This document shows, piece after piece, positions 1,183 to 18,320 of a stretch of DNA of 64,000 nucleotides. Location of the stretch: IMG/VR virus record IMGVR_UViG_3300021963_000042, positions 1 through 64,000 of that record; one strand, written 5' to 3'. Numbering within the stretch: the first letter of the stretch is position 1; each line of letters begins with the position of its first letter. Under the pieces are notes generated by a model that was not told the origin of the DNA, searched no databases, and saw only the letters and a list, made by a program, of their open reading frames with translations. Both the position numbers and the translations under genes were made by a program. The DNA is from a virus. Its lineage: Duplodnaviria; Heunggongvirae; Uroviricota; Caudoviricetes.

Positions 1183-1775
1183 TATAACTCCAAATTAGTC
1201 AACTTATTAACATCGCCAAGCGATCCACGATAAAACGAATTAAACGCCAAAGAAACTCTGGCTTCATTATTCTTATTGGTATTGACTCCGTGCAACATAT
1301 GTGATGGGAACAATACAATCATATTTTGTTTAACATTGATAGGCATGTGGTCAAGATTAAACTTAGTCTGCTTAGTTATCTTGGGTTTGATACCGTAAGA
1401 TTTATCCTTAAAGAAAATTATCTGACTCGGATCTTTACTAATATAAACTACTCCGCTGATGATACTATTGTCATGGCAGTGTGTATGATGTGATGTATTT
1501 TTATCGTTAAAGTTTATCCAAGACTGAGTAACCTCAAGAGTAACACCTTCTGCTCCAATGATATTGATTAGATATTCTTGGAGGTGTTTATTAACCTGCG
1601 CCTTCAAAGATGACAATTCAGGTTTATCCAAAACAAAATTATCATTAGATGTTGCATTACCATACACATTCGGGTAGGTTTCAGTTTTAATGCTCTGTAT
1701 ATAAGCAAGCTCGTGAAACTGAAACTCTACCGTTGATTGGTAAAGTGGCGTTGGAAATAAACCGAAGACGTTCAC
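1182..1775 (-). CDS. 2OG-Fe(II) oxygenase (TIGR02466/PF13759-like)
   Basis: 197 aa. HTHCHD...SGVVYI...HMLHGV...RVSLAFN, i.e. HxD/H/RxS double-stranded beta-helix motifs. Paralogue of 7033-7653, 20188-20859 and 57505-58155. Confidence 0.6.
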   Translation of the reverse strand: MNVFGLFPTPLYQSTVEFQFHELAYIQSIKTETYPNVYGNATSNDNFVLDKPELSSLKAQVNKHLQEYLINIIGAEGVTLEVTQSWINFNDKNTSHHTHCHDNSIISGVVYISKDPSQIIFFKDKSYGIKPKITKQTKFNLDHMPINVKQNMIVLFPSHMLHGVNTNKNNEARVSLAFNSFYRGSLGDVNKLTNLEL

Positions 1776-3070
1776 CCGAAGAAATCCTCAAGTGATGTTG
1801 ATTCTGCCTCAGGATGATATTTCAACAATTCACCACGACCAAGTTTTTGTTCGCAATAGTCATACCACTCTTGAGATTCCCACATTCCCTGAGAAACACC
1901 ATTCCACAGTGGACGTTGCTCTGGGTGTTCTTTATTCAGTCTACGAGACTCAACAAAGTCATAACGACAATCTTCATACTCTTTAGAACCCAACTCAAGC
2001 ATCTTCTCACGGAAGTATACCACCAAAGAAATACGCTCAGAACCTTCTTCGCAAACGATAGGAGTGTTACCGTGCATAACTTCGTGGTTGTTAATCAACA
2101 GCAAGTCACCTGGACGTGGGTTAACAGCAACACGATACTCAGGTGCAATCAAATAACCACCACTGTACTTGCCATCATTAGACAGAGTTAGAAGGTTAGA
2201 CAGACCATCATTCAAATCGCCAACGTCATAGTGAGCAGCAGTGCGGAATGTTTTGTTTACAGTAACCGTAGTGAATGGTGTCCCAGGAACCAAGAATCGT
2301 GCATCGATTTTACCAGCAGCTTCCATCTGAGCAGCATAACGCTTAGGTAAGAACTCTTTAAAACCACCAGCCAAAGATTGCAGGAACGGATATGCCATGG
2401 CAAACTTCTCAGGATACTTCGCAGTATAAGAAGTGGCACGACCATAAGGGATGCGAGGATAACGATCAAACCAACCAGCAATACCTGAATGAACAGAGTT
2501 TGCATATGTGGTCAAGCAGATTAAATCTTCAGCAACGTGAACTGCCTCTTGTTTAGCTTGGTCAGCTGGCAACTTACGTGCACGTTCAACCCACTCATCA
2601 AACTTGAAGTTCTCTTTCTTTACACGATCGATAGACCAAACACGTGCACGATTAGAGATCTCTGGTTTCTTACCAGCATACTTCTTGCGAATCTCATCAA
2701 TAGGATCTTCACCGAAAAGGTTTTCAGTTGGCTTCAAGAAGTAGTCAACGATATCATATTCATACTCGGTAACCCATTCACGATTACCCAGCTTCTCACC
2801 ACGTGGTCCTGCAGCAAGTCCACGATTCTGTGTTTCGGTTGCTGCTTCACGAAGACCTGCGTAGGCTTGTTCTTGTTGCTCTTTGCTAAAGTAGTTCTTA
2901 CGAAACTTCAGAACGATCCTATCTTCGCTGATTGGATCTTCGCCAAACTTCGGTGGCATATAAACATCACAATCTTCTTCAATAAGAAAGTCATAGTGAC
3001 TCTCATCAACGAACTGACCCAACAGATGTTGACAGTCATGTTTTCTATCAGCTACAATTACCTTTACCAT
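1772..3070 (-). CDS. 2OG-Fe(II) dioxygenase-domain protein with clamp-binding-like C-terminal tail
   Basis: 432 aa. C-terminal domain has AAHYDVGD (HxD), HEVMHGN (H) and ERISLVVYF (RxS). The last 7 aa SLEDFFG are identical to the gp43 C-terminus. The N-terminal ~260 aa are unassigned. Confidence 0.5.
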   Translation of the reverse strand: MVKVIVADRKHDCQHLLGQFVDESHYDFLIEEDCDVYMPPKFGEDPISEDRIVLKFRKNYFSKEQQEQAYAGLREAATETQNRGLAAGPRGEKLGNREWVTEYEYDIVDYFLKPTENLFGEDPIDEIRKKYAGKKPEISNRARVWSIDRVKKENFKFDEWVERARKLPADQAKQEAVHVAEDLICLTTYANSVHSGIAGWFDRYPRIPYGRATSYTAKYPEKFAMAYPFLQSLAGGFKEFLPKRYAAQMEAAGKIDARFLVPGTPFTTVTVNKTFRTAAHYDVGDLNDGLSNLLTLSNDGKYSGGYLIAPEYRVAVNPRPGDLLLINNHEVMHGNTPIVCEEGSERISLVVYFREKMLELGSKEYEDCRYDFVESRRLNKEHPEQRPLWNGVSQGMWESQEWYDYCEQKLGRGELLKYHPEAESTSLEDFFG

Positions 3071-6472: not shown

Positions 6473-7036
6473 TTATACACTATTTTGATTTATCTGTAAA
6501 TTTTTTGTTGGAACATCAAACACAAAAGTAATGCGAACGCAATCACCAATGTTGTCAGTTCCATGTTCAAGTTTATTGTTAAACCAGAGTAACGTCCCTG
6601 GCTCAACATCATAATGTTCATCGCCTACATAATATCTATACCTTCCCTGTATAGACAGATGATAACGATCTCTTGTTTGATAGTAGTCGCCAATATCAAT
6701 GTGTTTGCCAACCTTTCCACCAACAGGAAGTGACAAGAAACCGCAACGAGAAAACTTGCCAAAGTTTCTCTTCATAAACCCAATAACTTCTGTGTGATGT
6801 TTGCAAGCTGGAGTTGGAATGCAAATCTCTGTGTCTCCGACGTATTGATCAAGCGATTCTACGCCACCCATAACAAGTTGTAGAACACCTGCTTCTACTT
6901 CTGGGAAACCACGATCTAACATAGACATCGCACCATCAACCTGTCTCTGTGAACCCCAATCTTCTGGATGTGCTTGTAACTGTTTCAGTATCTTAGAAAC
7001 ATTCAATCCAGTTTTGATGATGCGTATATTCTTCAT
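6473..7036 (-). CDS. cupin / 2OG-Fe(II) oxygenase-like (Asp/Asn beta-hydroxylase-like)
   Basis: 187 aa. GKHIDIGDY (HxD), LEHGTDN (H) and RITFVFDV (R). Confidence 0.45.
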   Translation of the reverse strand: MKNIRIIKTGLNVSKILKQLQAHPEDWGSQRQVDGAMSMLDRGFPEVEAGVLQLVMGGVESLDQYVGDTEICIPTPACKHHTEVIGFMKRNFGKFSRCGFLSLPVGGKVGKHIDIGDYYQTRDRYHLSIQGRYRYYVGDEHYDVEPGTLLWFNNKLEHGTDNIGDCVRITFVFDVPTKNLQINQNSV

Positions 7037-7653
7037 TTAATGTTTACTATTGACATGTCGTTACCAAGTTCACCACGAAGGAACACATTGAAAGACAGCG
7101 AGTATCTGGTTTTATCTGATGTATTCGGTTCGACTTTATGTAGAATATGTGATGGGAAGATCAAAATATCATTATCATATGGGTAGTGTGCCCACGATGG
7201 CGAGTTAAACAAATTTAGGTTTGAATATTCTACACGGATAGCTGGTGGAAAGATATTTGATGGCGAACCAATATCAAACACAATCTCTCCTGTTGTTTCG
7301 TCTGTTTGAATATAAACGACGCCAGACAAAAGAGAATTGTCATGTCTATGTAGTTGAGCAGCATCACCCTTCTCATGTTTCACAACCCAAGAGTTAGTTA
7401 TGTAAAACTCAATGTGAGGTGCTACAGACAACCCATTATAAACATAACGATCGAGGGCAGACTTGATCTTCTGTTTTAAAGAAGCAAAGTCTTCTCTGTC
7501 CAATACAAACTTATCAGCAGAGTACTTCCCATCATATATCAAGGAAGTTACTCTACTCAACTCATCTGATGTGATGGGTTCAATCTTTGATTGATAGATT
7601 GGTGTAGAAAATAATGGGACGATGTTATCCAAAGAAGTCCTCCAGAGATGCAT
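7033..7653 (-). CDS. 2OG-Fe(II) oxygenase (TIGR02466-like paralogue)
   Basis: HRHDNS...SGVVYI...HILHKV...RYSLSFNV. Track ORF extends to 7731. Internal Met start chosen to match the paralogue N-terminus (LFSTPIYQS). Overlaps the 3' end of gene 43. Confidence 0.55.
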   Translation of the reverse strand: MHLWRTSLDNIVPLFSTPIYQSKIEPITSDELSRVTSLIYDGKYSADKFVLDREDFASLKQKIKSALDRYVYNGLSVAPHIEFYITNSWVVKHEKGDAAQLHRHDNSLLSGVVYIQTDETTGEIVFDIGSPSNIFPPAIRVEYSNLNLFNSPSWAHYPYDNDILIFPSHILHKVEPNTSDKTRYSLSFNVFLRGELGNDMSIVNIK

Positions 7654-10111
7654 GTTCTTCCACCTTCCAGCCCAGTGGTTGAATAACAGTTTGAAGCGCA
7701 TCAAGGAAAGTCTTTTCAAACTGCAACTCATAATCTATGTATTCTTCCAAACCAAACTCTTTCGGTAGCACTTGCGGGAATGCAATCACATCTTCATTGA
7801 ATGGGTTTGGCTTCTTCACATACACAAACTTAATCTTCTCACCCTCTTTAATCAGCTGATACTTCTTGTCAAGACCAAGACGTTTAACGTGGTGATTGAA
7901 CAACAAAGAACCACGAACGTGGATAGGTGTACCCTTACCATAGATTGGGGAACCAGCATACTGGCGTAAACCATTTACACCACGAGGGAATGCTATTTCT
8001 TGGACAGGTAACGAGTTGAATTCTGCACGAAACTTTTCAATGAAGGAATGTAGTTTCGCTTGATCTCCCTCGAGAATAACTTCGATCGAACTCTTAAGTT
8101 TGTCACGAATAACAGCAGGTGTACTCGACTTGACCATCTCCAAGCCCATAACTTTGAGTTTAGGTTTCGCATACTGCACTCCCTCAGAATTGTGCACGTT
8201 CAGAATATATCGTTTCTTGGCAGTCCAGATACCCTTGTCAGCCAGAACCTCTCGCTTCATCTGCATCTTCTGAGAATATGCATTCATGTAGTCAGCAAGT
8301 TCTTGATAGCCTTTGTCGATGAAAGGTTGGATAACATCCTCGCAGATTTTATCCATGGTCTTGATCTTCTGTTCAGTAGTCTTACCTTCACAGATCTTCT
8401 CAATCAAAGTTTCAAGAGTCAGATAAATTGAGTCGGTATCGATGGCGATAACGAAGTCTTTACCTTCTGTCTTCAGAGTTTTGTTGAGGAATGCATTCAG
8501 CTTGTTAGCCATCCAACGAATAGACAACTGACCAGAAGTGGTAATACCTTCAGCCATACGGATATCGAAGTAACGGAAGTACTGGTTACCCATCGCACCA
8601 TAAGCAGAGTTTAGCGCAATCTTCATAGCCATCTGCAGGTTGTTCAATCGGCTAATCTCCTTCAGCAAGTGCTTCTGAGACTTGTCGTTCTGATATTCCT
8701 GCTCGACTTTCAACATCTGCTTCTTGAATTTGCTTCGGTCGACATACATCTTTTCCATCAACTCAGGCATAAACCCTTTGATGTCTTTGCGATATGTCCA
8801 ACCATTCGCAGTAACAGTCAAGTCCCTGCGCTTAGCATATGATGTGTCAACTTCTTGGTTCAACAACTTATCGACAGTACAAGAAATCTTTTCGCTGTTC
8901 AAAGTCTCTGGAGAAATGTTATACTGCATAATCAAGTGAGGATACAGACTGTTCAAGTCGAAGGAAGCAACCCACTTGTGTTGACCAATGATCGGGTCTT
9001 TAACAAACGCACCTTCAAATTGTTCGTTCTTGCTGGAGCCACTCTTCATAGGAATAACGATGTTCTTCTTACGCAGGTGGTTATAGATGATAGCATCCCA
9101 CATGCGAACCTGAGAGAACACGTCTTCGTAGTTAATCTTGGCGTTATATGCCATGGTCAGACACAACTCAATCAGTCGCATCTTGTCTTCCAGTTTGTCA
9201 ACCAACTCTACGTCGTGAATGTTATATTCAACGAACTGTTGCCAGTGGTTGGTATAGAAGTCTTTGAAGGTATCTCCAGGATTTTCTTTCTTCGCATCAC
9301 CTAGTTCTTCGCCAGCGATGTAATCGAGACGATATGATTCTTGCTTGGTATAAGTGAACTTCTTATACAAGTCAAGATAGTCTAGTTGTGAGATACCGTG
9401 AATGTCGAAAGAGATTTCTTCATTACCTTGAATGAAGATCTTGCGTTCGTTGATATAACCCCATGGCGAAAGTTTCGTAGCGATGGTTTCACCCAACTCT
9501 CGTTGAATGCGTTTCACCAAATATGGGATATCGAAGAAGCCAATGTTCCAACCTGTGACAACATCTGGATAGTTCTGCGACCACCAGATAATAAACTCTT
9601 TCAGAAGATGTTGTTCGTCTTTACAGTGCATGTAAATGACATCATCACGATTGTGAACAAACGCACGTGAACCGAAAGTGATTACACGTTTAGATTGAAG
9701 ATCTTTAACAGTGATTAGGAGAACCTCTTCGTTCGCCGAACGGATGTCAGGGAAACCAGATTCAGTTGCAGTCTCAATGTCGATGGTGAAGACTTTAATA
9801 TGTTCCATATCCCAGCGAATGTCACTCTCATAAGTGTCGCTAAGATATTGGCAGATATAATTGGTGTTACCGTAGATGTTGAAACCAGACACGTTCTCGT
9901 ATTGCTTAACGAACTCACGTGTCTCTTTAACAGTTCCAGGCTTGACTTCATCAACGCACTGACCATCGAGTGTGCGCCAATTACTTTCCTTCTTAGAGGA
10001 ACAGTAAAGGGTTGGGAAGAAATCTATTTTACGATTGAAGGGTCGTCCATTATCATACCCTCGGACAAACATTTTGTTACCAAAGGGAAAGACGTGGGTG
10101 TAAAATTGCAT
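7625..10111 (-). CDS. 43: DNA polymerase gp43 (family B)
   Basis: 828 aa. Exo motifs, motif A DLNSLYPH and motif C AIDTDS. C-terminus ends SLEDFFG. Confidence 0.9.
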   Translation of the reverse strand: MQFYTHVFPFGNKMFVRGYDNGRPFNRKIDFFPTLYCSSKKESNWRTLDGQCVDEVKPGTVKETREFVKQYENVSGFNIYGNTNYICQYLSDTYESDIRWDMEHIKVFTIDIETATESGFPDIRSANEEVLLITVKDLQSKRVITFGSRAFVHNRDDVIYMHCKDEQHLLKEFIIWWSQNYPDVVTGWNIGFFDIPYLVKRIQRELGETIATKLSPWGYINERKIFIQGNEEISFDIHGISQLDYLDLYKKFTYTKQESYRLDYIAGEELGDAKKENPGDTFKDFYTNHWQQFVEYNIHDVELVDKLEDKMRLIELCLTMAYNAKINYEDVFSQVRMWDAIIYNHLRKKNIVIPMKSGSSKNEQFEGAFVKDPIIGQHKWVASFDLNSLYPHLIMQYNISPETLNSEKISCTVDKLLNQEVDTSYAKRRDLTVTANGWTYRKDIKGFMPELMEKMYVDRSKFKKQMLKVEQEYQNDKSQKHLLKEISRLNNLQMAMKIALNSAYGAMGNQYFRYFDIRMAEGITTSGQLSIRWMANKLNAFLNKTLKTEGKDFVIAIDTDSIYLTLETLIEKICEGKTTEQKIKTMDKICEDVIQPFIDKGYQELADYMNAYSQKMQMKREVLADKGIWTAKKRYILNVHNSEGVQYAKPKLKVMGLEMVKSSTPAVIRDKLKSSIEVILEGDQAKLHSFIEKFRAEFNSLPVQEIAFPRGVNGLRQYAGSPIYGKGTPIHVRGSLLFNHHVKRLGLDKKYQLIKEGEKIKFVYVKKPNPFNEDVIAFPQVLPKEFGLEEYIDYELQFEKTFLDALQTVIQPLGWKVEEHASLEDFFG

Positions 10112-12562: not shown

Positions 12563-13140
12563 AGTAATGCCTTTCGCTGTTCTATGTACTTCTGGATCTG
12601 TTCAAGTTGGGCAATGCTTTCAACACGAGCGATAGAATCACACGCACGAATAACTGATGACGCTGGACCACCAGATGCTTCAGCCCAAGCAAACCCTTTA
12701 TCATAACTGTAAGCATGTCGCATAGATGTATGAATCCAATCTTCGATAACATCGAGATTGAGGTCTTCGAAGAACAAGACTCGAATAAAAACATTATCTG
12801 CATCATGCCCCATAAACCTCAAATACCTACCACATTGGTGATGGGTAATCTTCTCGGAGATAGTGCTGGACTTTAGATTATACGCACGATACGGCACATA
12901 ATCACTCTTACCAACATACCCAATATCTTTATCAACAATTCGCTTCGGTTTAGTTAAAGAGACTTGATAGATGCCACGATGGTTATCAACCTGCTTAGGA
13001 GAGAACACATTGTTCCACCAAGTTTTGGTCTTCAACCTTGTGTTATGTTTTTGAGCAGCATTGGGGATTGCAGAAACAGGAATCCAGTCAGTTATATGAC
13101 TAGCCTTGCTTCTGATATCCGCATCAATTTCTTTAATCAC
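12559..13140 (-). CDS. GIY-YIG nuclease-domain protein (Seg-like homing endonuclease candidate)
   Basis: RGIYQVSL...(11 aa)...IGYVGKS matches the GIY-X10-11-YIG motif. Lies next to the ligase gene. Confidence 0.5.
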   Translation of the reverse strand: MIKEIDADIRSKASHITDWIPVSAIPNAAQKHNTRLKTKTWWNNVFSPKQVDNHRGIYQVSLTKPKRIVDKDIGYVGKSDYVPYRAYNLKSSTISEKITHHQCGRYLRFMGHDADNVFIRVLFFEDLNLDVIEDWIHTSMRHAYSYDKGFAWAEASGGPASSVIRACDSIARVESIAQLEQIQKYIEQRKALL

Positions 13141-14495
13141 TTGATGTCCTTACTGTGGTCAGCCACATCTTTATCATCACGAAGTTCAACAAAGATAGGA
13201 AGGAACAAAGATTCCTCACCCAATTTGTTCTTGATACGACTATTATACTTGACTGCGACAATTCTGTCAAGTAATTTTTCAGTGATCAGATTCTTGCGAT
13301 GAGCATCATTGAAACCTGAGCCGACCGAAACCTTTACAACACCATCAGCAGATTCGCAAATAATTGCACCCAGCATACCTTCATACTTGCCAGTACCAGC
13401 CTGTACTCCAACGATACGCAGGTCGCATTCTAGTTCGCCTTTGAATTTGATCTGATGCTTTGCACGTTTATCTTCCCAAACACCACTACCATCTTTAAGG
13501 ATGATACCCTCAAGTCCTTGAGCAAGATATTCTTGGAAGATACCTTGCGCTTCATCTAGCGTTTGAACCATGTCGCTAGAAACGAGCCAAATCTTTTTAC
13601 CACTAGCCTTCTGTTTCTTTACAAGTTGTTGCAGAGAAGAGAATCGTGTTGAGTAGGGGGTTGCGCAACGACCACTAATAAATTGATCATACGGAATCAA
13701 GTCCCACACAGTAGCGTGAACCAACGATGCTTCTTTGGCAGAGATAGTTCCCTTGTTTGCTTTGTTGAGAATACCATTACCAGTCTGACGATCCGCAAAC
13801 TGATGGTCGCCTTCCAGCATTACCAGCAACTCACCATCAAAGACGCAATCAACACCATCAGCAAGAAACAAGAACTCTTGTTCCAAGTTACCGAGCAACT
13901 GAATCTCTTTACCGTTACGGCTACGGAATTCTACCTTACCATTTTTGACGATAGCGTTGAACCGCATCCCATCCATTTTTAGTTGGACGTAGGCTGGATA
14001 CTTTATCTTGTCTACCAGTTTCTGCTCGTACTGGCTGCACAACATTACGGGATATTCGCTCACCAAACCAGTCCACACTGCGTTTGCGGTTGACACTGAT
14101 GCTCCACATTTCAAATCCTTTTCGATAATTCGTTCGATAACCTTAGCGTCGTTAGAGTTAACTGCCTCAAGAATAGCAGTCAGTCGATCAATCGCAGCAT
14201 TACCAGTTACTACACGATTAGATAAGTCTTTGAGTGCAGGTAACATAGAAGCCAGCGAAGCAGCATGATCGCTGGTGTTGGGAGTATACTTTGGAATCTT
14301 GCGTTGATAGAACTGCGTAAAGGGATCGAGAGCCAAGCGGACTACCTCACGCAACACTTCGTTATCGCTGTTCGCATTTAGTTGATCGATTTTGAAGTTG
14401 CGAGAATTGTTTGCCGCAAGGCTCTCGAGAAAACCATTAATGTTCATTGTATCATTTCCTGTATAACAAATTTTGCTTCGGGGACAGAACGGCAC
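13137..14495 (-). CDS. 30: ATP-dependent DNA ligase
   Basis: 452 aa. KMDGMR (KxDG adenylation motif) on a ligase/OB fold. Confidence 0.85.
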   Translation of the reverse strand: MPFCPRSKICYTGNDTMNINGFLESLAANNSRNFKIDQLNANSDNEVLREVVRLALDPFTQFYQRKIPKYTPNTSDHAASLASMLPALKDLSNRVVTGNAAIDRLTAILEAVNSNDAKVIERIIEKDLKCGASVSTANAVWTGLVSEYPVMLCSQYEQKLVDKIKYPAYVQLKMDGMRFNAIVKNGKVEFRSRNGKEIQLLGNLEQEFLFLADGVDCVFDGELLVMLEGDHQFADRQTGNGILNKANKGTISAKEASLVHATVWDLIPYDQFISGRCATPYSTRFSSLQQLVKKQKASGKKIWLVSSDMVQTLDEAQGIFQEYLAQGLEGIILKDGSGVWEDKRAKHQIKFKGELECDLRIVGVQAGTGKYEGMLGAIICESADGVVKVSVGSGFNDAHRKNLITEKLLDRIVAVKYNSRIKNKLGEESLFLPIFVELRDDKDVADHSKDIK

Positions 14496-15620: not shown

Positions 15621-15926
15621 TTAGTTTTTTAGGCTAGGCATGGCGCCAGCCCCTACGATTTGGATGCCCGAACCGAAGATACGTTTATACTCATTTTCCA
15701 TCTTAACCTCAGGATTTCCTTCGGCTGCGACCGCATGAGCATGAATGTAGATTTTATCAGTAAGGTATGGCATGTAAGGCATCAAGCCCACACCAAGTTG
15801 TCCTTGTTCGTTTTGCTGCATCATCACCACAGCAGGATTTTCAACGAAGTAACCCTTCTCGCTTGTGCTGGTTACCTCAGCAATAATTTCTTCACCACTA
15901 ATCATCTTCATCACTTTTACTGTCAT
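15621..15926 (-). CDS. hypothetical protein
   Basis: 101-aa ORF. Confidence 0.35.
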   Translation of the reverse strand: MTVKVMKMISGEEIIAEVTSTSEKGYFVENPAVVMMQQNEQGQLGVGLMPYMPYLTDKIYIHAHAVAAEGNPEVKMENEYKRIFGSGIQIVGAGAMPSLKN

Positions 15927-16129
15927 ATATCACTCTCCGCTAAGTATTCTATAAATTGGGCAGCTTCTTCATGATCTGTAAAATGTTTTACAATAACATT
16001 CGCATTGTCATAATAATGCTGTGCAACGATTAACACATCTCTGGCTCTAAAGACAGAGATTTTCATAACCCAGTCGCCACGACGGATCGTTTGAAAGGAT
16101 ACGAGGTTGTGTGTTATTTTTGATTTCAT
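15923..16129 (-). CDS. hypothetical protein
   Basis: 68-aa ORF. Confidence 0.3.
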   Translation of the reverse strand: MKSKITHNLVSFQTIRRGDWVMKISVFRARDVLIVAQHYYDNANVIVKHFTDHEEAAQFIEYLAESDI

Positions 16130-16173
16130 ACAAACTATTTAGGGGAACCGAAGTCCCCCTAACGAATGTATGA

Positions 16174-16305
16174 TTAAATAATTTCGTATTCGTCTTTGCC
16201 TACACCACACTCAGGGCATAGAAAGTCAGCTGGAAGTTCTTCCCACTTACCTTCAATTTCCTCATCGTGGATGTGACCACAAACTACACATACATGTTCC
16301 ATCAT
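16174..16305 (-). CDS. rubredoxin
   Basis: 43 aa, MMEHVCVVCGHIHD...CPECGVGKDEYEII, with two CxxCG knuckles. Its start overlaps the rubrerythrin stop as ATGA. Not in the ORF track (<60 aa). Confidence 0.7.
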   Translation of the reverse strand: MMEHVCVVCGHIHDEEIEGKWEELPADFLCPECGVGKDEYEII

Positions 16306-16751
16306 AGACCTCCCAAAACTTGTTTATATGCATTAGCATGGCGCTCTTCAACTTTCTTCAAAGCTGCAAAACGCTTTTCTGCTTTTGCAAGAACTGCTTT
16401 GAATTGTTGAGCATGTTCGTTTGATTCACGTCCTTGCTCATTGAATTCTTTAACAGCTTCAATGTTTTGTTCAATCTTTGCTTGGCGTTCAAACTGAGGA
16501 TACATTGTAGTAAACTCATAGGTCTCACCTTCGATCGCTTTCTCCAAGCATTCCTTAGTGGATGGCTTGCCGATTAGCAATTCTAGATGACCCCATGCGT
16601 GCTTGATTTCTTGGTCAGCTGTATGCTCAAAGTGTTGAGCAACTTCCTCGAAACCTTCTTCACGTGCGATCTTAGCGAAGTAACGATACTTGATATGAGC
16701 CATTGACTCGCCAGCCAATGCACCCTCAAGATTTTCTAATGTTATAGACAT
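16302..16751 (-). CDS. rubrerythrin/ferritin-like diiron protein
   Basis: 149 aa. Four-helix E / ExxH / E / ExxH pattern (ESMAHIKY, EIKHAWGH, EGETYEF, ESNEHAQ). Confidence 0.6.
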   Translation of the reverse strand: MSITLENLEGALAGESMAHIKYRYFAKIAREEGFEEVAQHFEHTADQEIKHAWGHLELLIGKPSTKECLEKAIEGETYEFTTMYPQFERQAKIEQNIEAVKEFNEQGRESNEHAQQFKAVLAKAEKRFAALKKVEERHANAYKQVLGGL

Positions 16752-17053
16752 ATGGTCTCACTTTGTTTTGTTATGTGGATTTGGTGGCACTTTGCCGTTT
16801 ACCCAATCCCAGTCTTCGTCCGTCATTGGAATCCAGTTGTTCATAATGTATAACCCCTTCTTTGAGAATAATTTCTAGACCAGTGTTCTACATCTGCTGC
16901 AGATTGTGGATTCTTAGAAAGTATATACAACTCAAGTTGGGATTTTTGCTCAAATAACTTGGACAGTTTTTTGAGCAAGTTCATCATTTTACTTTACCTA
17001 CCTTGTAGGTTTTGTATTTCTGGATGCCCTCAGAGATGCCAAGAATAATTTCT

Positions 17054-17563
17054 TTACAGGCGTTCAGCAGCTTCATCATAGCCATCCTCCTGTAAAAATT
17101 GCTTGCTTCCCTTAGTCTTCACTGGGACTTTCTTTGCTTTCTTTTCTTCTGGGATTAGACGCTCAAGAACAATCTTAAGCATACCATTGAAAAGTTCAGC
17201 GTCTTTAACTTCGATCTTGTCATCGACAGCGAAAGTACGAGTGAACGCACGAGTAGCGATACCTTTGAACAGGTAGTCGTTATCGTCAGCTGCGTTTTGG
17301 ACATTACCCTTAACGACAAGTTTACCACCATCAATCTCGATGTCGATTTCGTTTTGTGCGAAACCTGCTACAGCGATCTCGATCGTGTAAGTAGTATCAC
17401 CAGTCTTACGGATGTTGAAGGGAGGATAGTTGGGAATGTTCTTTGTCAAATCATCATGCAGTGTTTGCATGCGTTTGAATTGGTCGTCAAAACCAACAAA
17501 GAATTTGTCAAGGTCTTTGAATGCATCTTGTGAAAAGAATGCAGGAATGAATTGTTTATTCAT
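17054..17563 (-). CDS. small heat-shock protein (Hsp20/alpha-crystallin)
   Basis: 169 aa. YPPFNIRKTGDTTYTIEIAVAGF...LVVKG...NGMLKIVLER is IbpA-like. Confidence 0.75.
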   Translation of the reverse strand: MNKQFIPAFFSQDAFKDLDKFFVGFDDQFKRMQTLHDDLTKNIPNYPPFNIRKTGDTTYTIEIAVAGFAQNEIDIEIDGGKLVVKGNVQNAADDNDYLFKGIATRAFTRTFAVDDKIEVKDAELFNGMLKIVLERLIPEEKKAKKVPVKTKGSKQFLQEDGYDEAAERL

Positions 17564-17725
17564 AGTTTTCTCCTATTAAGCGAGTTAGTTAAATTGTAAT
17601 GATACCCCGAAGGCATATCGATCCTGCTTACTGTAGTACAGGGACACCTTATCGTAGTGCCAGCCTTAAGACGCTCCTAAGGTAGTAGAGTCTTTACGTT
17701 CCCATCCCGAGGGATGCAAATTTAT

Positions 17726-17905
17726 TTAGGCAGCAGGTTGTTCTGCTTGAGCAGCCTGCGCAGCTTTCACAAGTTCATCGACTTGTGGATCGCCTTGTTG
17801 TTTAATCTTACTTACCAAAGCAACAACTTCTTCAAAAGGATGCTTACCCAAAGTACGAAGAATCATATTTACTTCATCAATAGTCAATTCAAGTTTAATC
17901 ATTTC
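17726..17905 (-). CDS. small hypothetical protein
   Basis: Internal Met of track ORF 17726-18013 was chosen to avoid the regA overlap. Confidence 0.25.
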   Translation of the reverse strand, partial: EMIKLELTIDEVNMILRTLGKHPFEEVVALVSKIKQQGDPQVDELVKAAQAAQAEQPAA

Positions 17906-18320
17906 GTTTTTTCCCGATATTATATTTAGGTACAAGTTCCCACTGGTCTTTCTCTTTGTAGGAAACCACTTTAATTTGAGATAGCGATGCTTTCTGTTCT
18001 GCTTTTGTTGCAACCAGAATCTTCAAGAGTTCCCAGTCTTGCAACAATGCAGCGATTGCATTGCGTCTCTCAATATCACCAGAAGTGATATTCGATTCTT
18101 TACCGTCCAAAGCAAATAGTTCTTTGAAGTGAACGATAAAGTACCTACCTTGCTTATGTAAAATATGGCAAGATTGGTAAAGTTTCTTTTCTTTTCTGGA
18201 AGCGATTCCGATGCGAGTAAGTGTCTCACGAACCTTCAGAAAGTTATCTGGTTCTGGTAGTGTCACTTCAAGCATGGACTCTGGTGTCCAGTCGTAGTAA
18301 ATCATTTCAACGCTCATCAT
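17895..18320 (-). CDS. regA: translational repressor RegA
   Basis: 141 aa. FLKVRETLTRIGIA...LYQSCHILHKQGRYFIVHFKEL...WELVPKYNIG aligns to T4 RegA. Confidence 0.8.
   Translation of the reverse strand: MMSVEMIYYDWTPESMLEVTLPEPDNFLKVRETLTRIGIASRKEKKLYQSCHILHKQGRYFIVHFKELFALDGKESNITSGDIERRNAIAALLQDWELLKILVATKAEQKASLSQIKVVSYKEKDQWELVPKYNIGKKRND

What the first reader, a model, noticed from the sequence alone, without database searches (positions are those of the whole stretch)
16174..16751. Translationally coupled rubrerythrin plus rubredoxin pair
A ferritin-like diiron protein with the rubrerythrin E/ExxH pattern is followed, through an ATGA overlap, by a 43-aa rubredoxin with two CxxCG knuckles. 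The rubredoxin is below the ORF-track cutoff. A UUCG-capped hairpin follows at 16141-16160. This is a peroxide-detoxifying redox couple typical of anaerobes, microaerophiles or cyanobacteria. It is a plausible host-protection auxiliary gene pair and a clue to host physiology.
Basis: seen in the sequence. Interest (0 to 1): 0.55.

Follow-up and report, generated by a model that had tools for sequence, protein, structure and literature searches.

The report
Phage rubrerythrin–rubredoxin peroxide-defence gene pair
An uncultured T4-like phage carries a tightly coupled two-gene module, acquired long ago from proteobacteria, that most likely destroys hydrogen peroxide inside the infected cell; the genes are real, conserved and widespread, but the enzyme system itself is a known kind.

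Summary
On the minus strand, 16302-16751 encodes a 149-aa rubrerythrin-family diiron protein and 16174-16305 a 42/43-aa rubredoxin. Their stop and start codons overlap, a GGAGG site lies inside the upstream gene, and a stable UUCG hairpin follows.

The window is an uncultured T4-like myovirus. The pair sits in its replication module, downstream of hsp20.

The pair is not a one-off. 538 IMG/VR contigs encode a relative, and 82 of 83 loci examined have rubredoxin directly downstream. Both genes are under strong purifying selection (dN/dS about 0.1) and match the phage's base composition.

The phage proteins form one clade. The closest cellular relatives (52-74% identity) are in freshwater Beta- and Gammaproteobacteria. 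There the operon is rubrerythrin, rubredoxin and a NorW-like rubredoxin reductase, often beside an OxyR-like regulator. The phage kept the first two genes, lost the spacer and shortened the rubredoxin.

Most likely mechanism, inferred: NADH, then a host reductase, then phage rubredoxin, then phage rubrerythrin, which reduces H2O2 to water.

One structural oddity is unresolved. This subfamily has a 25-residue duplication in helix D, so it has two invariant Glu/His pairs.

Verdict: a new member of a known kind, of moderate interest.

The parts
16302..16751 (-). rbr: 149-aa one-domain rubrerythrin (erythrin) of the group-5 proteobacterial type. Candidate ligands are E15, E48/H51, E76/E79, E135/H138, plus a second invariant pair E109/H113 in a 25-aa duplicated stretch of helix D.
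   Evidence: Pfam PF02915 65.5 bits. PDB sequence hits to sulerythrin and Burkholderia pseudomallei Rbr at E about 1e-20. AF2 pLDDT 96.3 with helices 3-31, 35-60, 65-93 and 97-148. Foldseek TM 0.75-0.80 to sulerythrin, Pyrococcus furiosus Rbr and Clostridioides difficile Rbr. Ligand invariance in 84 phage and 79 bacterial sequences. dN/dS 0.10.
16174..16305 (-). rd: mini-rubredoxin, 43 aa from the first ATG or 42 aa from the conserved ATG at 16302. Cys6/9/30/33 form the FeS4 site. It is 9 residues shorter than the solved rubredoxin it aligns with best, and the two core Tyr are replaced by His.
   Evidence: Pfam PF00301 37.1 bits. Best PDB hit is Pseudomonas aeruginosa rubredoxin 2 (2v3b_B) at E 3.6e-11, with a 9-residue gap. 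The four Cys are present in every complete rubredoxin read in 82 loci. dN/dS 0.115. Its 90% cluster has 1214 members.
16300..16314 (-). Coupling junction: GGGAGG (16314-16309) inside the rbr 3' end, ATGA overlap (16305-16302) and TGATG overlap (16304-16300).
   Evidence: Read directly from the sequence. Overlapping start and stop (-1 or -4) in 73 of 78 phage loci. In the proteobacterial loci the two genes are usually separated by tens of nt or more (ORF coordinates).
16139..16162 (-). UUCG-capped 10-bp hairpin 12 nt after the rd stop. It is a likely transcript end or mRNA-stabilising element. An outer stem (UCAUACA / UGUAUGA, about 16173-16126) includes the start codon of the next gene at 16129.
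   Evidence: dG -24 kcal/mol, z -6.6. Of 80 phage loci folded, 24 have a UUCG loop, and the stem sequence differs between loci while pairing is kept.
16758..16844 (-). Conserved 28-aa Trp-rich small ORF (MNNWIPMTDEDWDWVNGKVPPNPHNKTK). It overlaps the stop of orf48 through ATGA and ends 6 nt before the rbr ATG. It links rbr-rd into a densely packed gene string.
   Evidence: Sequence. tblastn finds it in 26 loci, and the twelve best matches are 89-100% identical.
17054..17563 (-). hsp20 small heat-shock protein, upstream on the same strand. It is a conserved neighbour and possibly in the same transcription unit (inferred).
   Evidence: Pfam PF00011 59.3 bits and PHROG 432. hsp20 lies in the retrieved flanks (up to about 3 kb) of rbr-rd in 61 of 84 phage loci.

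Best explanation
A T4-like phage of an uncultured lineage carries a two-gene subset of a proteobacterial peroxide-stress operon.

Proposed mechanism:
- The 149-aa protein is a one-domain rubrerythrin whose diiron centre reduces H2O2 to water.
- The 42/43-aa protein is its dedicated one-electron carrier, a rubredoxin with an FeCys4 site.
- The two are probably made in a fixed ratio by translational coupling, from one mRNA closed by a UUCG hairpin.
- Electrons are expected to flow from NADH to a host flavoprotein reductase, then to phage rubredoxin, then to phage rubrerythrin, then to H2O2. The reductase would be the NorW-like rubredoxin reductase that completes the bacterial operon, or another host reductase.
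- The benefit would be to keep peroxide low during infection, when the host may no longer be able to induce its own OxyR regulon. This would protect DNA and the phage's iron enzymes, including four Fe(II)/2-oxoglutarate-type oxygenases in this window.

Shown: the protein identities, the fold, ligand conservation, the gene coupling, phage residence, wide distribution, purifying selection, a single phage clade with proteobacterial relatives, and the bacterial operon context.

Inferred: peroxidase activity, electron flow from rubredoxin to rubrerythrin, dependence on a host reductase, and the benefit to the phage.
For: Identity:
- Pfam hits for both proteins are well above threshold.
- PDB sequence hits are to sulerythrin and rubrerythrins and to rubredoxins.
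- The AF2 model (pLDDT 96.3) matches sulerythrin, Pyrococcus furiosus Rbr and Clostridioides difficile Rbr chains with TM 0.75-0.80.

Phage context:
- RegA, gp62, gp44, hsp20, DNA ligase, gp43, UvsX, gp41 and gp23 surround the pair.
- The same arrangement occurs on contigs of up to 99 kb and beyond.

Conservation:
- 538 IMG/VR contigs encode a relative.
- 82 of 83 loci have rd directly downstream.
- Start and stop overlap in 73 of 78 loci.
- Ligand residues are invariant.
- dN/dS is 0.10 for rbr and 0.115 for rd.
- GC is 41%, against 40.4% for the window and 45-69% for nine bacterial homologue loci checked.

Origin:
- The phage sequences form a single clade in an NJ tree, and identity to bacterial sequences is 52-74%.
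- Cellular homologues are in freshwater Beta- and Gammaproteobacteria.

Functional linkage:
- In the bacterial loci, rbr is followed by rd in 72 of 79.
- A NorW-like NADH:rubredoxin reductase follows in 70 of 79.
- An OxyR-like LysR gene is adjacent in 33 of 79.
- The related protein P0170, whose sequence features match the cyanobacterial form described in PMC5114695, has the same long-form rubrerythrin fused to a long-spaced rubredoxin domain.
- PMC5114695 defines this 'group 5'.
- Its characterised member, Anabaena RbrA, is an NADPH/FNR-dependent peroxidase (PMC6616624, citing Zhao et al. 2007).
Against: - No biochemical data exist for the proteobacterial or phage clade.
- No reductase gene was found in the 64-kb window, in the retrieved flanks (up to about 3 kb) of 84 loci, or by a low-sensitivity scan of IMG/VR. 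The electron source is therefore assumed.
- The rest of the roughly 165-170 kb genome was not seen.
- On the AF2 model, the residue at the canonical bridging-Glu position of helix D is Ser110. The canonical ExxH (E135/H138) lies on a protruding extension, so the exact metal site is uncertain.
- Both proteins score below NCBIfam equivalog cut-offs: 69.5 against 200, and 37.7 against 90.
- Rubrerythrins also show ferroxidase and metal-binding behaviour in vitro.
- Expression timing and the host are unknown.
Confidence: 0.72

Rival explanations
1. The pair handles iron or oxygen rather than peroxide. The rubrerythrin would act as a ferroxidase or small iron or metal store, or as a rubredoxin:O2 oxidoreductase. 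It would supply or buffer Fe for the phage's many iron enzymes (2OG oxygenases, ribonucleotide reductase) or lower O2.
For: - The fold belongs to the ferritin-like superfamily, with a weak Pfam Ferritin hit of 22.5 bits.
- Burkholderia pseudomallei rubrerythrin binds several metals promiscuously (bioRxiv 10.1101/2025.06.01.657255, abstract seen).
- The window holds four Fe(II)-dependent oxygenase-type genes.
- The extra invariant Glu/His pair could be a second metal site.
Against: - The bacterial operon sits next to an OxyR-like regulator and includes an NADH-dependent reductase. That fits catalytic peroxide reduction, not storage.
- A 149-aa erythrin chain that resembles dimeric sulerythrin and rubrerythrin chains offers no sign of a ferritin-like storage cage.
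- The characterised group-5 member is a peroxidase (PMC6616624).
Confidence: 0.12
2. The rubredoxin's main client is something else in the phage or host, and the rubrerythrin only protects that system. Candidate clients are re-reduction of Fe(III) in 2OG/TET-type oxygenases, activation of ribonucleotide reductase, or a host hydroxylase.
For: - Rubredoxins serve several acceptors, such as alkane hydroxylases and flavorubredoxin. The best PDB match is the AlkG-type Pseudomonas aeruginosa Rd2.
- Several oxygenases are encoded nearby.
Against: - rd is glued to rbr in 82 of 83 phage loci and follows it in 72 of 79 bacterial loci.
- It is fused to rbr in the cyanobacterial-type relative.
- The oxygenases are about 9-15 kb away, and no linkage to the pair was seen in the related loci examined.
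Confidence: 0.08
3. The genes are not a working phage feature. They would be a recent passenger from a bacterium, an assembly chimera, or a decaying remnant.
For: - The closest cellular homologues are bacterial.
- One 77%-identical copy (L085) is filed in a bacterial MAG.
Against: - The same pair sits between the same T4-like genes on many independent contigs.
- Composition is fully phage-like.
- dN/dS is about 0.1.
- Ligands are invariant.
- The phage sequences form a single clade.
- L085 has the phage-type 42-aa rd and falls inside the phage clade, so it is more likely a mis-binned phage contig.
Confidence: 0.02

Closest known systems
Proteobacterial one-domain clade of 'group 5 / cyanobacterial-type' rubrerythrins (Cardenas et al. 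2016, PMC5114695), as in the rbr-rd-reductase operons of Polynucleobacter, Aquabacterium, Undibacterium, Aromatoleum and Gallionella
   Same: - 52-74% identity.
- Same length class, with the same 25-aa duplication in helix D and the same invariant residues E15, E48, H51, E76, E79, E109, S110, H113, E135, H138.
- Rubredoxin gene directly downstream.
   Different: - The phage copy lacks the NorW-like reductase and the OxyR-like regulator.
- The intergenic spacer has collapsed to a 1- or 4-nt overlap.
- Rubredoxin is 42-46 aa instead of about 54-60 aa.
- The composition has shifted to that of the phage.
Anabaena sp. PCC 7120 RbrA (Alr1174), the characterised group-5 rubrerythrin
   Same: - It belongs to the same sequence group as defined in PMC5114695.
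- It is a peroxidase that removes H2O2 with NAD(P)H-derived electrons (PMC6616624).
- The cyanobacterial-type fusion protein P0170 keeps both the D1 and D2 motifs.
   Different: - RbrA carries a fused long-spaced rubredoxin domain and uses FNR.
- The D1-to-D2 spacing is 21 rather than 25 residues in the cyanobacterial-type sequences.
- The RbrA sequence itself was not aligned here.
Aerobic-type erythrins: sulerythrin (1J30), ferriperoxin and Burkholderia pseudomallei rubrerythrin (4DI0)
   Same: - They are the best matches among solved structures: E about 1e-20, about 38% identity, TM 0.75-0.80.
- They have no rubredoxin domain.
- The AF2 model fits the sulerythrin, Pyrococcus furiosus Rbr, Clostridioides difficile Rbr and Burkholderia pseudomallei Rbr chains closely (rmsd 1.2-2.4 A) and the Desulfovibrio vulgaris rubrerythrin chain poorly (rmsd about 14-15 A). 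I read this as the open, domain-swapped chain conformation (own knowledge).
   Different: - They have no 25-aa helix-D duplication.
- Their typical neighbours are DUF3501 and an Fe-S oxidoreductase (PMC5114695), not rubredoxin and a reductase. None of those neighbours was seen here.
Classical rubrerythrin / rubredoxin / NADH:rubredoxin oxidoreductase system of anaerobes (Desulfovibrio vulgaris, Pyrococcus furiosus, Clostridioides difficile)
   Same: The same proposed electron path (reductase to Rd to diiron site to H2O2) and the same ligand pattern.
   Different: - Classical Rbr has a C-terminal short-spaced FeCys4 domain, which is absent here.
- NCBIfam rubrerythrin equivalog score is 69.5 against a cut-off of 200.
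- The Desulfovibrio vulgaris rubrerythrin chain superposes poorly on the model, with rmsd about 14-15 A.
Pelagibacter phage Mosig EXVC030M 'putative rubrerythrin' (MT647606.1), the only isolated phage with a hit
   Same: A T4-like aquatic myovirus (Kyanoviridae) carrying a one-domain erythrin.
   Different: - Only 42% identical.
- It lacks the 25-residue helix-D insertion.
- No rubredoxin gene is annotated beside it, and the next gene is the ssDNA-binding protein.
- It sits in a different genomic position, so it is probably an independent acquisition.
Short rubredoxins such as the 45-aa Desulfovibrio desulfuricans protein (6RXN)
   Same: A very short rubredoxin (45-46 aa) that aligns with the phage protein over nearly its full length. 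Both CxxCG knuckles are kept. The loop deletion in 6RXN is stated from own knowledge.
   Different: - The phage form is shorter still (42-43 aa, and about 40 aa in one sub-lineage).
- It has His at the two conserved core Tyr positions (CGHIHD against CGFIYD).

Membership tests
Rubrerythrin family (Pfam PF02915, ferritin-like diiron four-helix proteins) | Profile match above the curated threshold | tested here: met
   65.5 bits against 22.8, E 8.3e-18
Rubrerythrin family (Pfam PF02915, ferritin-like diiron four-helix proteins) | Two antiparallel helix pairs of the ferritin-like fold | tested here: met
   AF2 pLDDT 96.3 with helices 3-31, 35-60, 65-93 and 97-148. TM 0.75-0.80 to sulerythrin and rubrerythrin chains.
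Rubrerythrin family (Pfam PF02915, ferritin-like diiron four-helix proteins) | Ligand set E (helix A), ExxH (B), ExxE (C), ExxH (D) | tested here: inconclusive
   All seven are present and invariant by family alignment: E15, E48/H51, E76/E79, E135/H138. However, the structure model and pairwise alignments put E109-S110-x-x-H113 at the helix-D ligand level, with Ser where the bridging Glu should be. A profile test favours E135/H138 as the orthologous motif by about 10 bits.
Rubrerythrin family (Pfam PF02915, ferritin-like diiron four-helix proteins) | Binds two Fe and reduces H2O2 | not testable with these tools
   Needs purified protein.
Classical rubrerythrin (NCBIfam NF045767 equivalog, with a C-terminal FeCys4 domain) | C-terminal short-spaced CxxC...CxxC rubredoxin-like domain, and a score above the equivalog cut-off | tested here: not met
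   The protein ends at residue 149 and has a single Cys (Cys68), which is not in a CxxC motif. It scores 69.5 bits against a cut-off of 200.
Group 5 'cyanobacterial-type' rubrerythrins, proteobacterial one-domain clade (PMC5114695) | One-domain protein whose closest relatives are alpha-, beta- or gammaproteobacterial, and which is sister to cyanobacterial proteins fused to a long-spaced rubredoxin | tested here: met
   52-74% identity to 78 unique Beta- and Gammaproteobacterial sequences. It shares the 25-aa insertion and the D1/D2 motifs with them and with the fusion protein P0170. The original paper's own sequence set was not available for a joint tree.
Aerobic-type erythrin (sulerythrin / ferriperoxin lineage, PMC5114695) | Co-localised DUF3501 and Fe-S oxidoreductase (RFO) genes, and a canonical-length helix D | tested here: not met
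   The neighbours are phage genes here, and rubredoxin plus a reductase in the bacterial homologues. Helix D carries a 25-aa insertion relative to the Mosig protein and other canonical-length relatives.
Rubredoxin (Pfam PF00301) | Two CxxCG knuckles that supply four Cys to one Fe, and a profile match above threshold | tested here: met
   C6/C9 and C30/C33. 37.1 bits against 23. The Cys are present in every complete rubredoxin read in 82 loci.
Rubredoxin (NCBIfam NF045768 equivalog) | Full-length rubredoxin of about 52-54 aa scoring above the equivalog cut-off | tested here: not met
   37.7 bits against a cut-off of 90, with a 9-residue gap in the alignment. The adjacent bacterial rubredoxin also scores below it (75.6 bits).
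NADH:rubredoxin reductase - rubredoxin - rubrerythrin peroxidase system | All three components encoded together | tested here: not met
   A reductase is present in 70 of 79 bacterial loci. It is absent from the window, from 84 phage loci and from a pattern-limited IMG/VR scan. The phage module has two genes.
Phage auxiliary (host-derived) gene | Flanked by phage hallmark genes on both sides, cellular homologues exist, composition adapted to the phage, and under selection in phages | tested here: met
Translationally coupled gene pair | Overlapping stop and start with a ribosome-binding site inside the upstream gene, conserved among relatives | tested here: met
   ATGA and TGATG overlaps plus GGGAGG. 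Overlap of -1 or -4 in 73 of 78 loci. Coupling itself, meaning dependence of rd translation on rbr translation, is not testable here.

The most novel reading that the evidence does not exclude
The rubrerythrin of this phage, and the whole 'group 5' subfamily it belongs to, may not be a plain four-helix diiron protein.

A 25-residue tandem duplication inside helix D creates one 52-residue helix that carries two invariant Glu/His pairs on the same face. These are E109-S-x-x-H113 at the canonical level and E135-x-x-H138 about 37 A away.

The second pair could do one of three things:
- form an extra metal site between subunits;
- complete the diiron site of a neighbouring chain;
- form the docking and electron-entry site for the free rubredoxin.

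Any of these would be an undescribed architecture in the ferritin-like superfamily, preserved from cyanobacteria to phages.
Probability: 0.25. Interest if true: 0.6.

Novelty: new member of a known kind. Interest (0 to 1): 0.42.

Why it matters
Possible significance:
- If the inferred function holds, a widespread uncultured lineage of T4-like phages brings its own peroxide-scavenging enzyme and electron carrier into the cell. That would make H2O2 a selective force on phage replication in its hosts' habitats. It would also add an antioxidant module to the list of phage auxiliary genes. No PHROG family matches convincingly, and no similar rbr-rd pair was found in the 50,697 deposited phage records.
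- The proteobacterial origin gives a concrete host lead, freshwater Burkholderiales-like bacteria, for a phage group with no cultured member.
- The stripped-down design, a 42-aa rubredoxin with no reductase and overlapping genes, is a natural minimal version of the system. It could be used for biochemical work.
- The duplicated ligand helix flags an unstudied structural question in a rubrerythrin subfamily that also includes the cyanobacterial enzyme RbrA.

Tried and rejected
1. DNA-level search of the 2.1-kb region against deposited phages found no match. The lineage has no close sequenced isolate. gp43 is at most about 57% identical.

2. PHROGs gave no family for either protein beyond a chance-level hit.

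3. I first took the window for a marine pelagiphage or cyanophage, because RegA is closest to phages Melnitz and HTVC008M and Mosig has a rubrerythrin. I dropped this. The Mosig protein lacks the helix-D insertion and has no rubredoxin. The cellular relatives of this pair are freshwater Beta- and Gammaproteobacteria.

4. I suspected a lost ligand (Ser110) from the HMMER alignment. The family alignment then showed a canonical ExxH further downstream.

5. I then assumed that the C-terminal ExxH simply is helix D. AF2 and Foldseek contradict that geometry. The question stays open.

6. The short-insert relatives (P0161, P0186, P0187, P0196) looked like proof that the first motif is dispensable. 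Several of them have lost other ligands or may be truncated or chimeric predictions, so they carry little weight.

The afdb50 library was unavailable.

8. A genome-contig scan with the broad alignment failed for lack of conserved stretches. It worked with a narrower alignment.

9. A search for a phage-encoded rubredoxin reductase found none. The IMG/VR scan used only two peptide patterns.

10. There is no late-promoter TATAAATA near the pair. The sigma-70-like matches are at chance level. There is no Rfam match and no tRNA.

11. Ten literature searches found no description of a T4-like phage rubrerythrin-rubredoxin pair (among them). Rubrerythrin appears only as a listed auxiliary gene in anaerobic digesters (PMC13644194). 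The library covers open-access papers only.
Full report
**What is there**

On the minus strand, 16302..16751 is a 149-aa ORF and 16174..16305 a 43-aa ORF. Pfam assigns them to Rubrerythrin (PF02915, 65.5 bits, E 8.3e-18) and Rubredoxin (PF00301, 37.1 bits, E 3.2e-09). Both scores are well above the curated thresholds.

The rbr stop TGA (16304-16302) overlaps a first rd ATG (16305-16303, ATGA) and a second ATG (16302-16300, TGATG). A GGGAGG ribosome-binding site (16314-16309) lies in the last rbr codons.

Twelve nucleotides after the rd stop there is a 10-bp hairpin with a UUCG loop at 16162-16139. The 56-nt context folds at -24 kcal/mol, z = -6.6. The only refinement is that the conserved rubredoxin start is the second ATG, which gives 42 aa.

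**Genomic setting**

The window is a T4-like myovirus. Around the pair are:
- RegA (17895-18320), clamp-loader gp62 and gp44, and hsp20 (17054-17563);
- a MazG-like pyrophosphatase, DNA ligase (13137-14495) and DNA polymerase gp43 (7625-10111);
- UvsX, the gp41 helicase and the gp23 capsid protein.

Almost all genes run on the minus strand. No deposited phage is close. The region has no DNA match and gp43 is at most about 57% identical to any record. RegA is closest to Methylophilales phage Melnitz and Pelagibacter phage HTVC008M, at about 73%.

Between hsp20 and rbr lie three tiny ORFs. One is a 28-aa Trp-rich ORF (16758-16844) found in 26 related loci, whose twelve best matches are 89-100% identical. 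The whole string is packed with overlaps and ends at the hairpin, so hsp20 to rd may be one transcription unit. That is an inference. No convincing promoter was found.

**Is it a real, maintained phage feature?**

Yes.
- The exact protein occurs on other metagenome contigs, and close relatives lie on contigs of 95-171 kb.
- In those contigs the order gp45, gp44, gp62, regA, hsp20, small ORFs, rbr, rd, ligase, gp43 is the same.
- A scan of IMG/VR found 538 contigs that encode a relative.
- In 83 loci that hold rbr, 82 have rubredoxin directly downstream. The exception runs off the contig end.
- The start/stop distance is -1 in 53 loci, -4 in 20, +1 in 3 and 142 in 2, out of 78.
- hsp20 lies in the retrieved flanks (up to about 3 kb) in 61 of 84 loci.
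- Median dN/dS is 0.10 for rbr and 0.115 for rd.
- The GC content of the pair (41%) equals that of the window (40.4%), whereas nine bacterial homologue loci checked have 45-69%.
- Among 50,697 deposited phage records, only Pelagibacter phage Mosig and some unannotated faecal contigs have any rubrerythrin hit. No similar rbr-rd pair was found in them.
- PHROGs has no convincing family for either protein, and BFVD has no significant structural match.

**Where it came from**

A scan of one genome per prokaryotic species returned 580 relatives. The best 79 cellular ones are 59-68% identical by tblastn best segment. They are nearly all freshwater or soil Beta- and Gammaproteobacteria, including Polynucleobacter, Aquabacterium, Undibacterium, Limnobacter, Rhodoferax, Gallionella and Aromatoleum.

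A 77%-identical copy filed under an Aquiluna MAG (L085) has the phage-type 42-aa rubredoxin, falls inside the phage clade and has phage-like neighbours. It is probably mis-binned.

In a neighbour-joining tree, all 68 distinct phage sequences form one clade with no bacterial sequence inside. Phage-phage identity is 66-99% and phage-bacterium identity 52-74%. This argues for one old acquisition followed by spread within phages.

**What the bacterial context says about function**

- In the bacterial loci, rbr is followed by a full-length rubredoxin of about 54-60 aa in 72 of 79.
- Next comes a protein of about 390 aa that matches NorW-type NADH:(flavo)rubredoxin reductases in 70 of 79. It scores 298-315 bits, below the NorW equivalog cut-off, so it is a family-level assignment.
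- In 33 of 79 loci an OxyR-like LysR regulator is adjacent. In Polynucleobacter it is divergent and scores 227 bits to OxyR, below the cut-off.

This is the layout expected of a peroxide-inducible NADH peroxidase system.

Cardenas et al. (PMC5114695) classified exactly this set as 'group 5'. It comprises a proteobacterial clade of one-domain rubrerythrins and a cyanobacterial clade in which the protein is fused to a long-spaced rubredoxin domain. One such fusion, P0170, turned up here and shares the family's special motifs. The characterised member, Anabaena RbrA, is a peroxidase driven by NADPH through FNR (PMC6616624, citing Zhao et al. 2007). Gene fusion, conserved adjacency and overlap in the phage all point to rubredoxin as the rubrerythrin's electron donor.

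**What the phage changed**

- It kept two of the three enzyme genes. No reductase or OxyR homologue is found in the window, in 84 phage loci, or in a low-sensitivity pattern scan of IMG/VR.
- It removed the spacer.
- It shortened rubredoxin by nine residues relative to its best solved match. The two core Tyr were replaced by His (CGHIHD against CGFIYD). One sub-lineage has an even shorter form of about 40 aa.
- In another sub-lineage an unrelated 42-aa ORF is wedged between rbr and rd, again with 1-nt overlaps.

**Most likely mechanism** (inferred, confidence about 0.7)

NADH reduces a host flavoprotein, either the host's own rubredoxin reductase or another reductase. That enzyme reduces phage rubredoxin. 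Rubredoxin passes single electrons to the diiron site of phage rubrerythrin, which reduces H2O2 to water without Fenton chemistry.

A plausible reason for carrying it is that T4-like infection shuts down host transcription, so the OxyR response cannot be induced. Meanwhile the phage depends on peroxide-sensitive iron enzymes. The window alone has a Tet/JBP-type oxygenase (1772-3070), two 2OG-Fe(II) oxygenases (1182-1775, 7033-7731) and a cupin hydroxylase (6473-7036). The host-shutoff argument and the sensitivity of mononuclear iron enzymes to H2O2 rest on general knowledge, not on tests made here.

**An unresolved structural oddity**

Relative to canonical erythrins, this subfamily has 25 extra residues in helix D. 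AF2 predicts helices 3-31, 35-60 and 65-93, then a single 52-residue helix 97-148 (pLDDT 96.3).

The model superposes on the sulerythrin, Pyrococcus furiosus, Clostridioides difficile and Burkholderia pseudomallei rubrerythrin chains with TM 0.75-0.80 over 126-135 columns. It superposes poorly on the Desulfovibrio vulgaris rubrerythrin chain. I read this as the open, domain-swapped conformation (own knowledge).

That alignment length, together with the HMMER alignment, places residues 97-123 in the canonical helix-D position. There H113 matches the ligand His, but Ser110 sits where the bridging Glu (Glu126 of sulerythrin) should be, with Glu109 one residue earlier. The canonical ExxH (E135/H138) lies on the protruding second half.

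The sequence says the opposite. Against a profile of 15 canonical erythrins, deleting residues 106-130 (which keeps E135/H138) scores 149.3 bits. Deleting 120-144 (which keeps E109/H113) scores 139.6, and truncating at 124 scores 137.6.

The other observations are these:
- The two halves resemble each other, consistent with a tandem duplication.
- E109, S110, H113, E135 and H138 are all invariant in 84 phage and 79 bacterial sequences, while E112 varies.
- The His-to-His spacing is 25 residues in proteobacteria and phages and 21 in the cyanobacterial-type sequences. Both are close to whole helical turns, so the two pairs face the same side.
- AF2 of the cyanobacterial-type fusion gives the same long helix, with lower confidence in the second half.

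Which pair binds iron, and what the other does, cannot be settled with single-chain models. A dimer model was not possible.

**Comparison with known systems and verdict**

The pair works like the classical rubredoxin/rubrerythrin peroxidase system, but it is not a classical rubrerythrin. It has no FeCys4 domain and falls below the NCBIfam equivalog cut-off. It is also not an aerobic-type erythrin of the sulerythrin lineage, because its neighbours differ and it has the helix-D insertion. It is a member of the proteobacterial group-5 clade, carried by a phage as a reduced two-gene module.

The only isolated phage with a rubrerythrin, Mosig, has a different type without rubredoxin. No paper in the searchable library describes this phage module (among the searches).

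I rate it a new member of a known kind. It is solidly real and ecologically suggestive, with a useful host lead and a side question about protein architecture. It is not a new mechanism.

Noticed in passing
window 16758-16844 (-): A 28-aa Trp-rich small ORF (MNNWIPMTDEDWDWVNGKVPPNPHNKTK). It overlaps the stop of the 48-aa ORF (16841-16987) through ATGA and ends 6 nt before rbr. tblastn finds it in 26 related loci, and the twelve best matches are 89-100% identical. It probably explains the 157-aa mis-called rubrerythrin starts in some databases.
   Followed up: partly
window 1772-3070 (-), with 1182-1775, 6473-7036, 7033-7731 (-): A 432-aa Tet/JBP-family 2OG-Fe(II) oxygenase (PF12851, 83.7 bits) sits next to a second 2OG-Fe(II) oxygenase. 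Two more oxygenase or cupin genes lie near gp43. This may be a DNA base-hypermodification module.
   Followed up: no
window about 16126-16173 (-): An outer stem (UCAUACA / UGUAUGA) around the UUCG hairpin pairs with the start codon of the next gene (orf68, ATG at 16129). An inner-plus-outer stem of this kind recurs in many of the 80 related loci folded, with different stem sequences. This might occlude translation start of the downstream gene.
   Followed up: partly
window about 17603-17621 (-): A second UUCG-capped hairpin (GAUAUGCCUUCGGGGUAUC) lies in the 160-nt gap upstream of hsp20, next to another small GC hairpin. There is no Rfam match.
   Followed up: no
L166 1997-2125, also L167 and L168: In one sub-lineage an unrelated 42-aa ORF (MFKVTFKTPSQSVNFFKWFKNEQHAKTFAFALDDRFIKMEKL) is inserted between rbr and rd, with 1-nt overlaps on both sides.
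   Followed up: partly
L009, L016, L020, L033, L046, L051, L057, L075, L076, L078, L081: A second, even shorter rubredoxin type of about 40 aa (CGH.LSE.D..SLPD.V.CPECGVSK) follows rbr in some phage lineages. Eleven loci have this shorter Cys-to-Cys core of 26 rather than 29 residues.
   Followed up: no
L085 (CAZKLA010000025.1, 'uncultured Aquiluna sp.' MAG): This 20-kb contig carries the phage-type rbr plus a 42-aa rd. It falls inside the phage clade and has ATP-grasp, collagen-repeat and DUF2828/DUF7788 neighbours. It is probably a phage contig binned into an actinobacterial MAG, or a weak host hint.
   Followed up: partly
L018, L057, L058, L066, L080, L082: In several phage loci the sequence just after rd looks like a tRNA gene (for example GGAGTAGCTCAGGAGTAGAGCGCCGGACTCATAATCCGG). 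The pair therefore sits in more than one genomic context. No tRNA search was run on these loci.
   Followed up: no
proteins P0136 (1957 aa), P0137 (983 aa), P0138 (1338 aa): Very long proteins made of 6-8 tandem rubrerythrin repeats topped the representative-library search. Their origin is unknown.
   Followed up: no
window 15621-15926 (-): A 101-aa protein with a weak Sm-like Pfam hit matches PHROG 527 (unknown function) at E 4e-17. It lies two genes downstream of rd and is present in 26 related loci.
   Followed up: no
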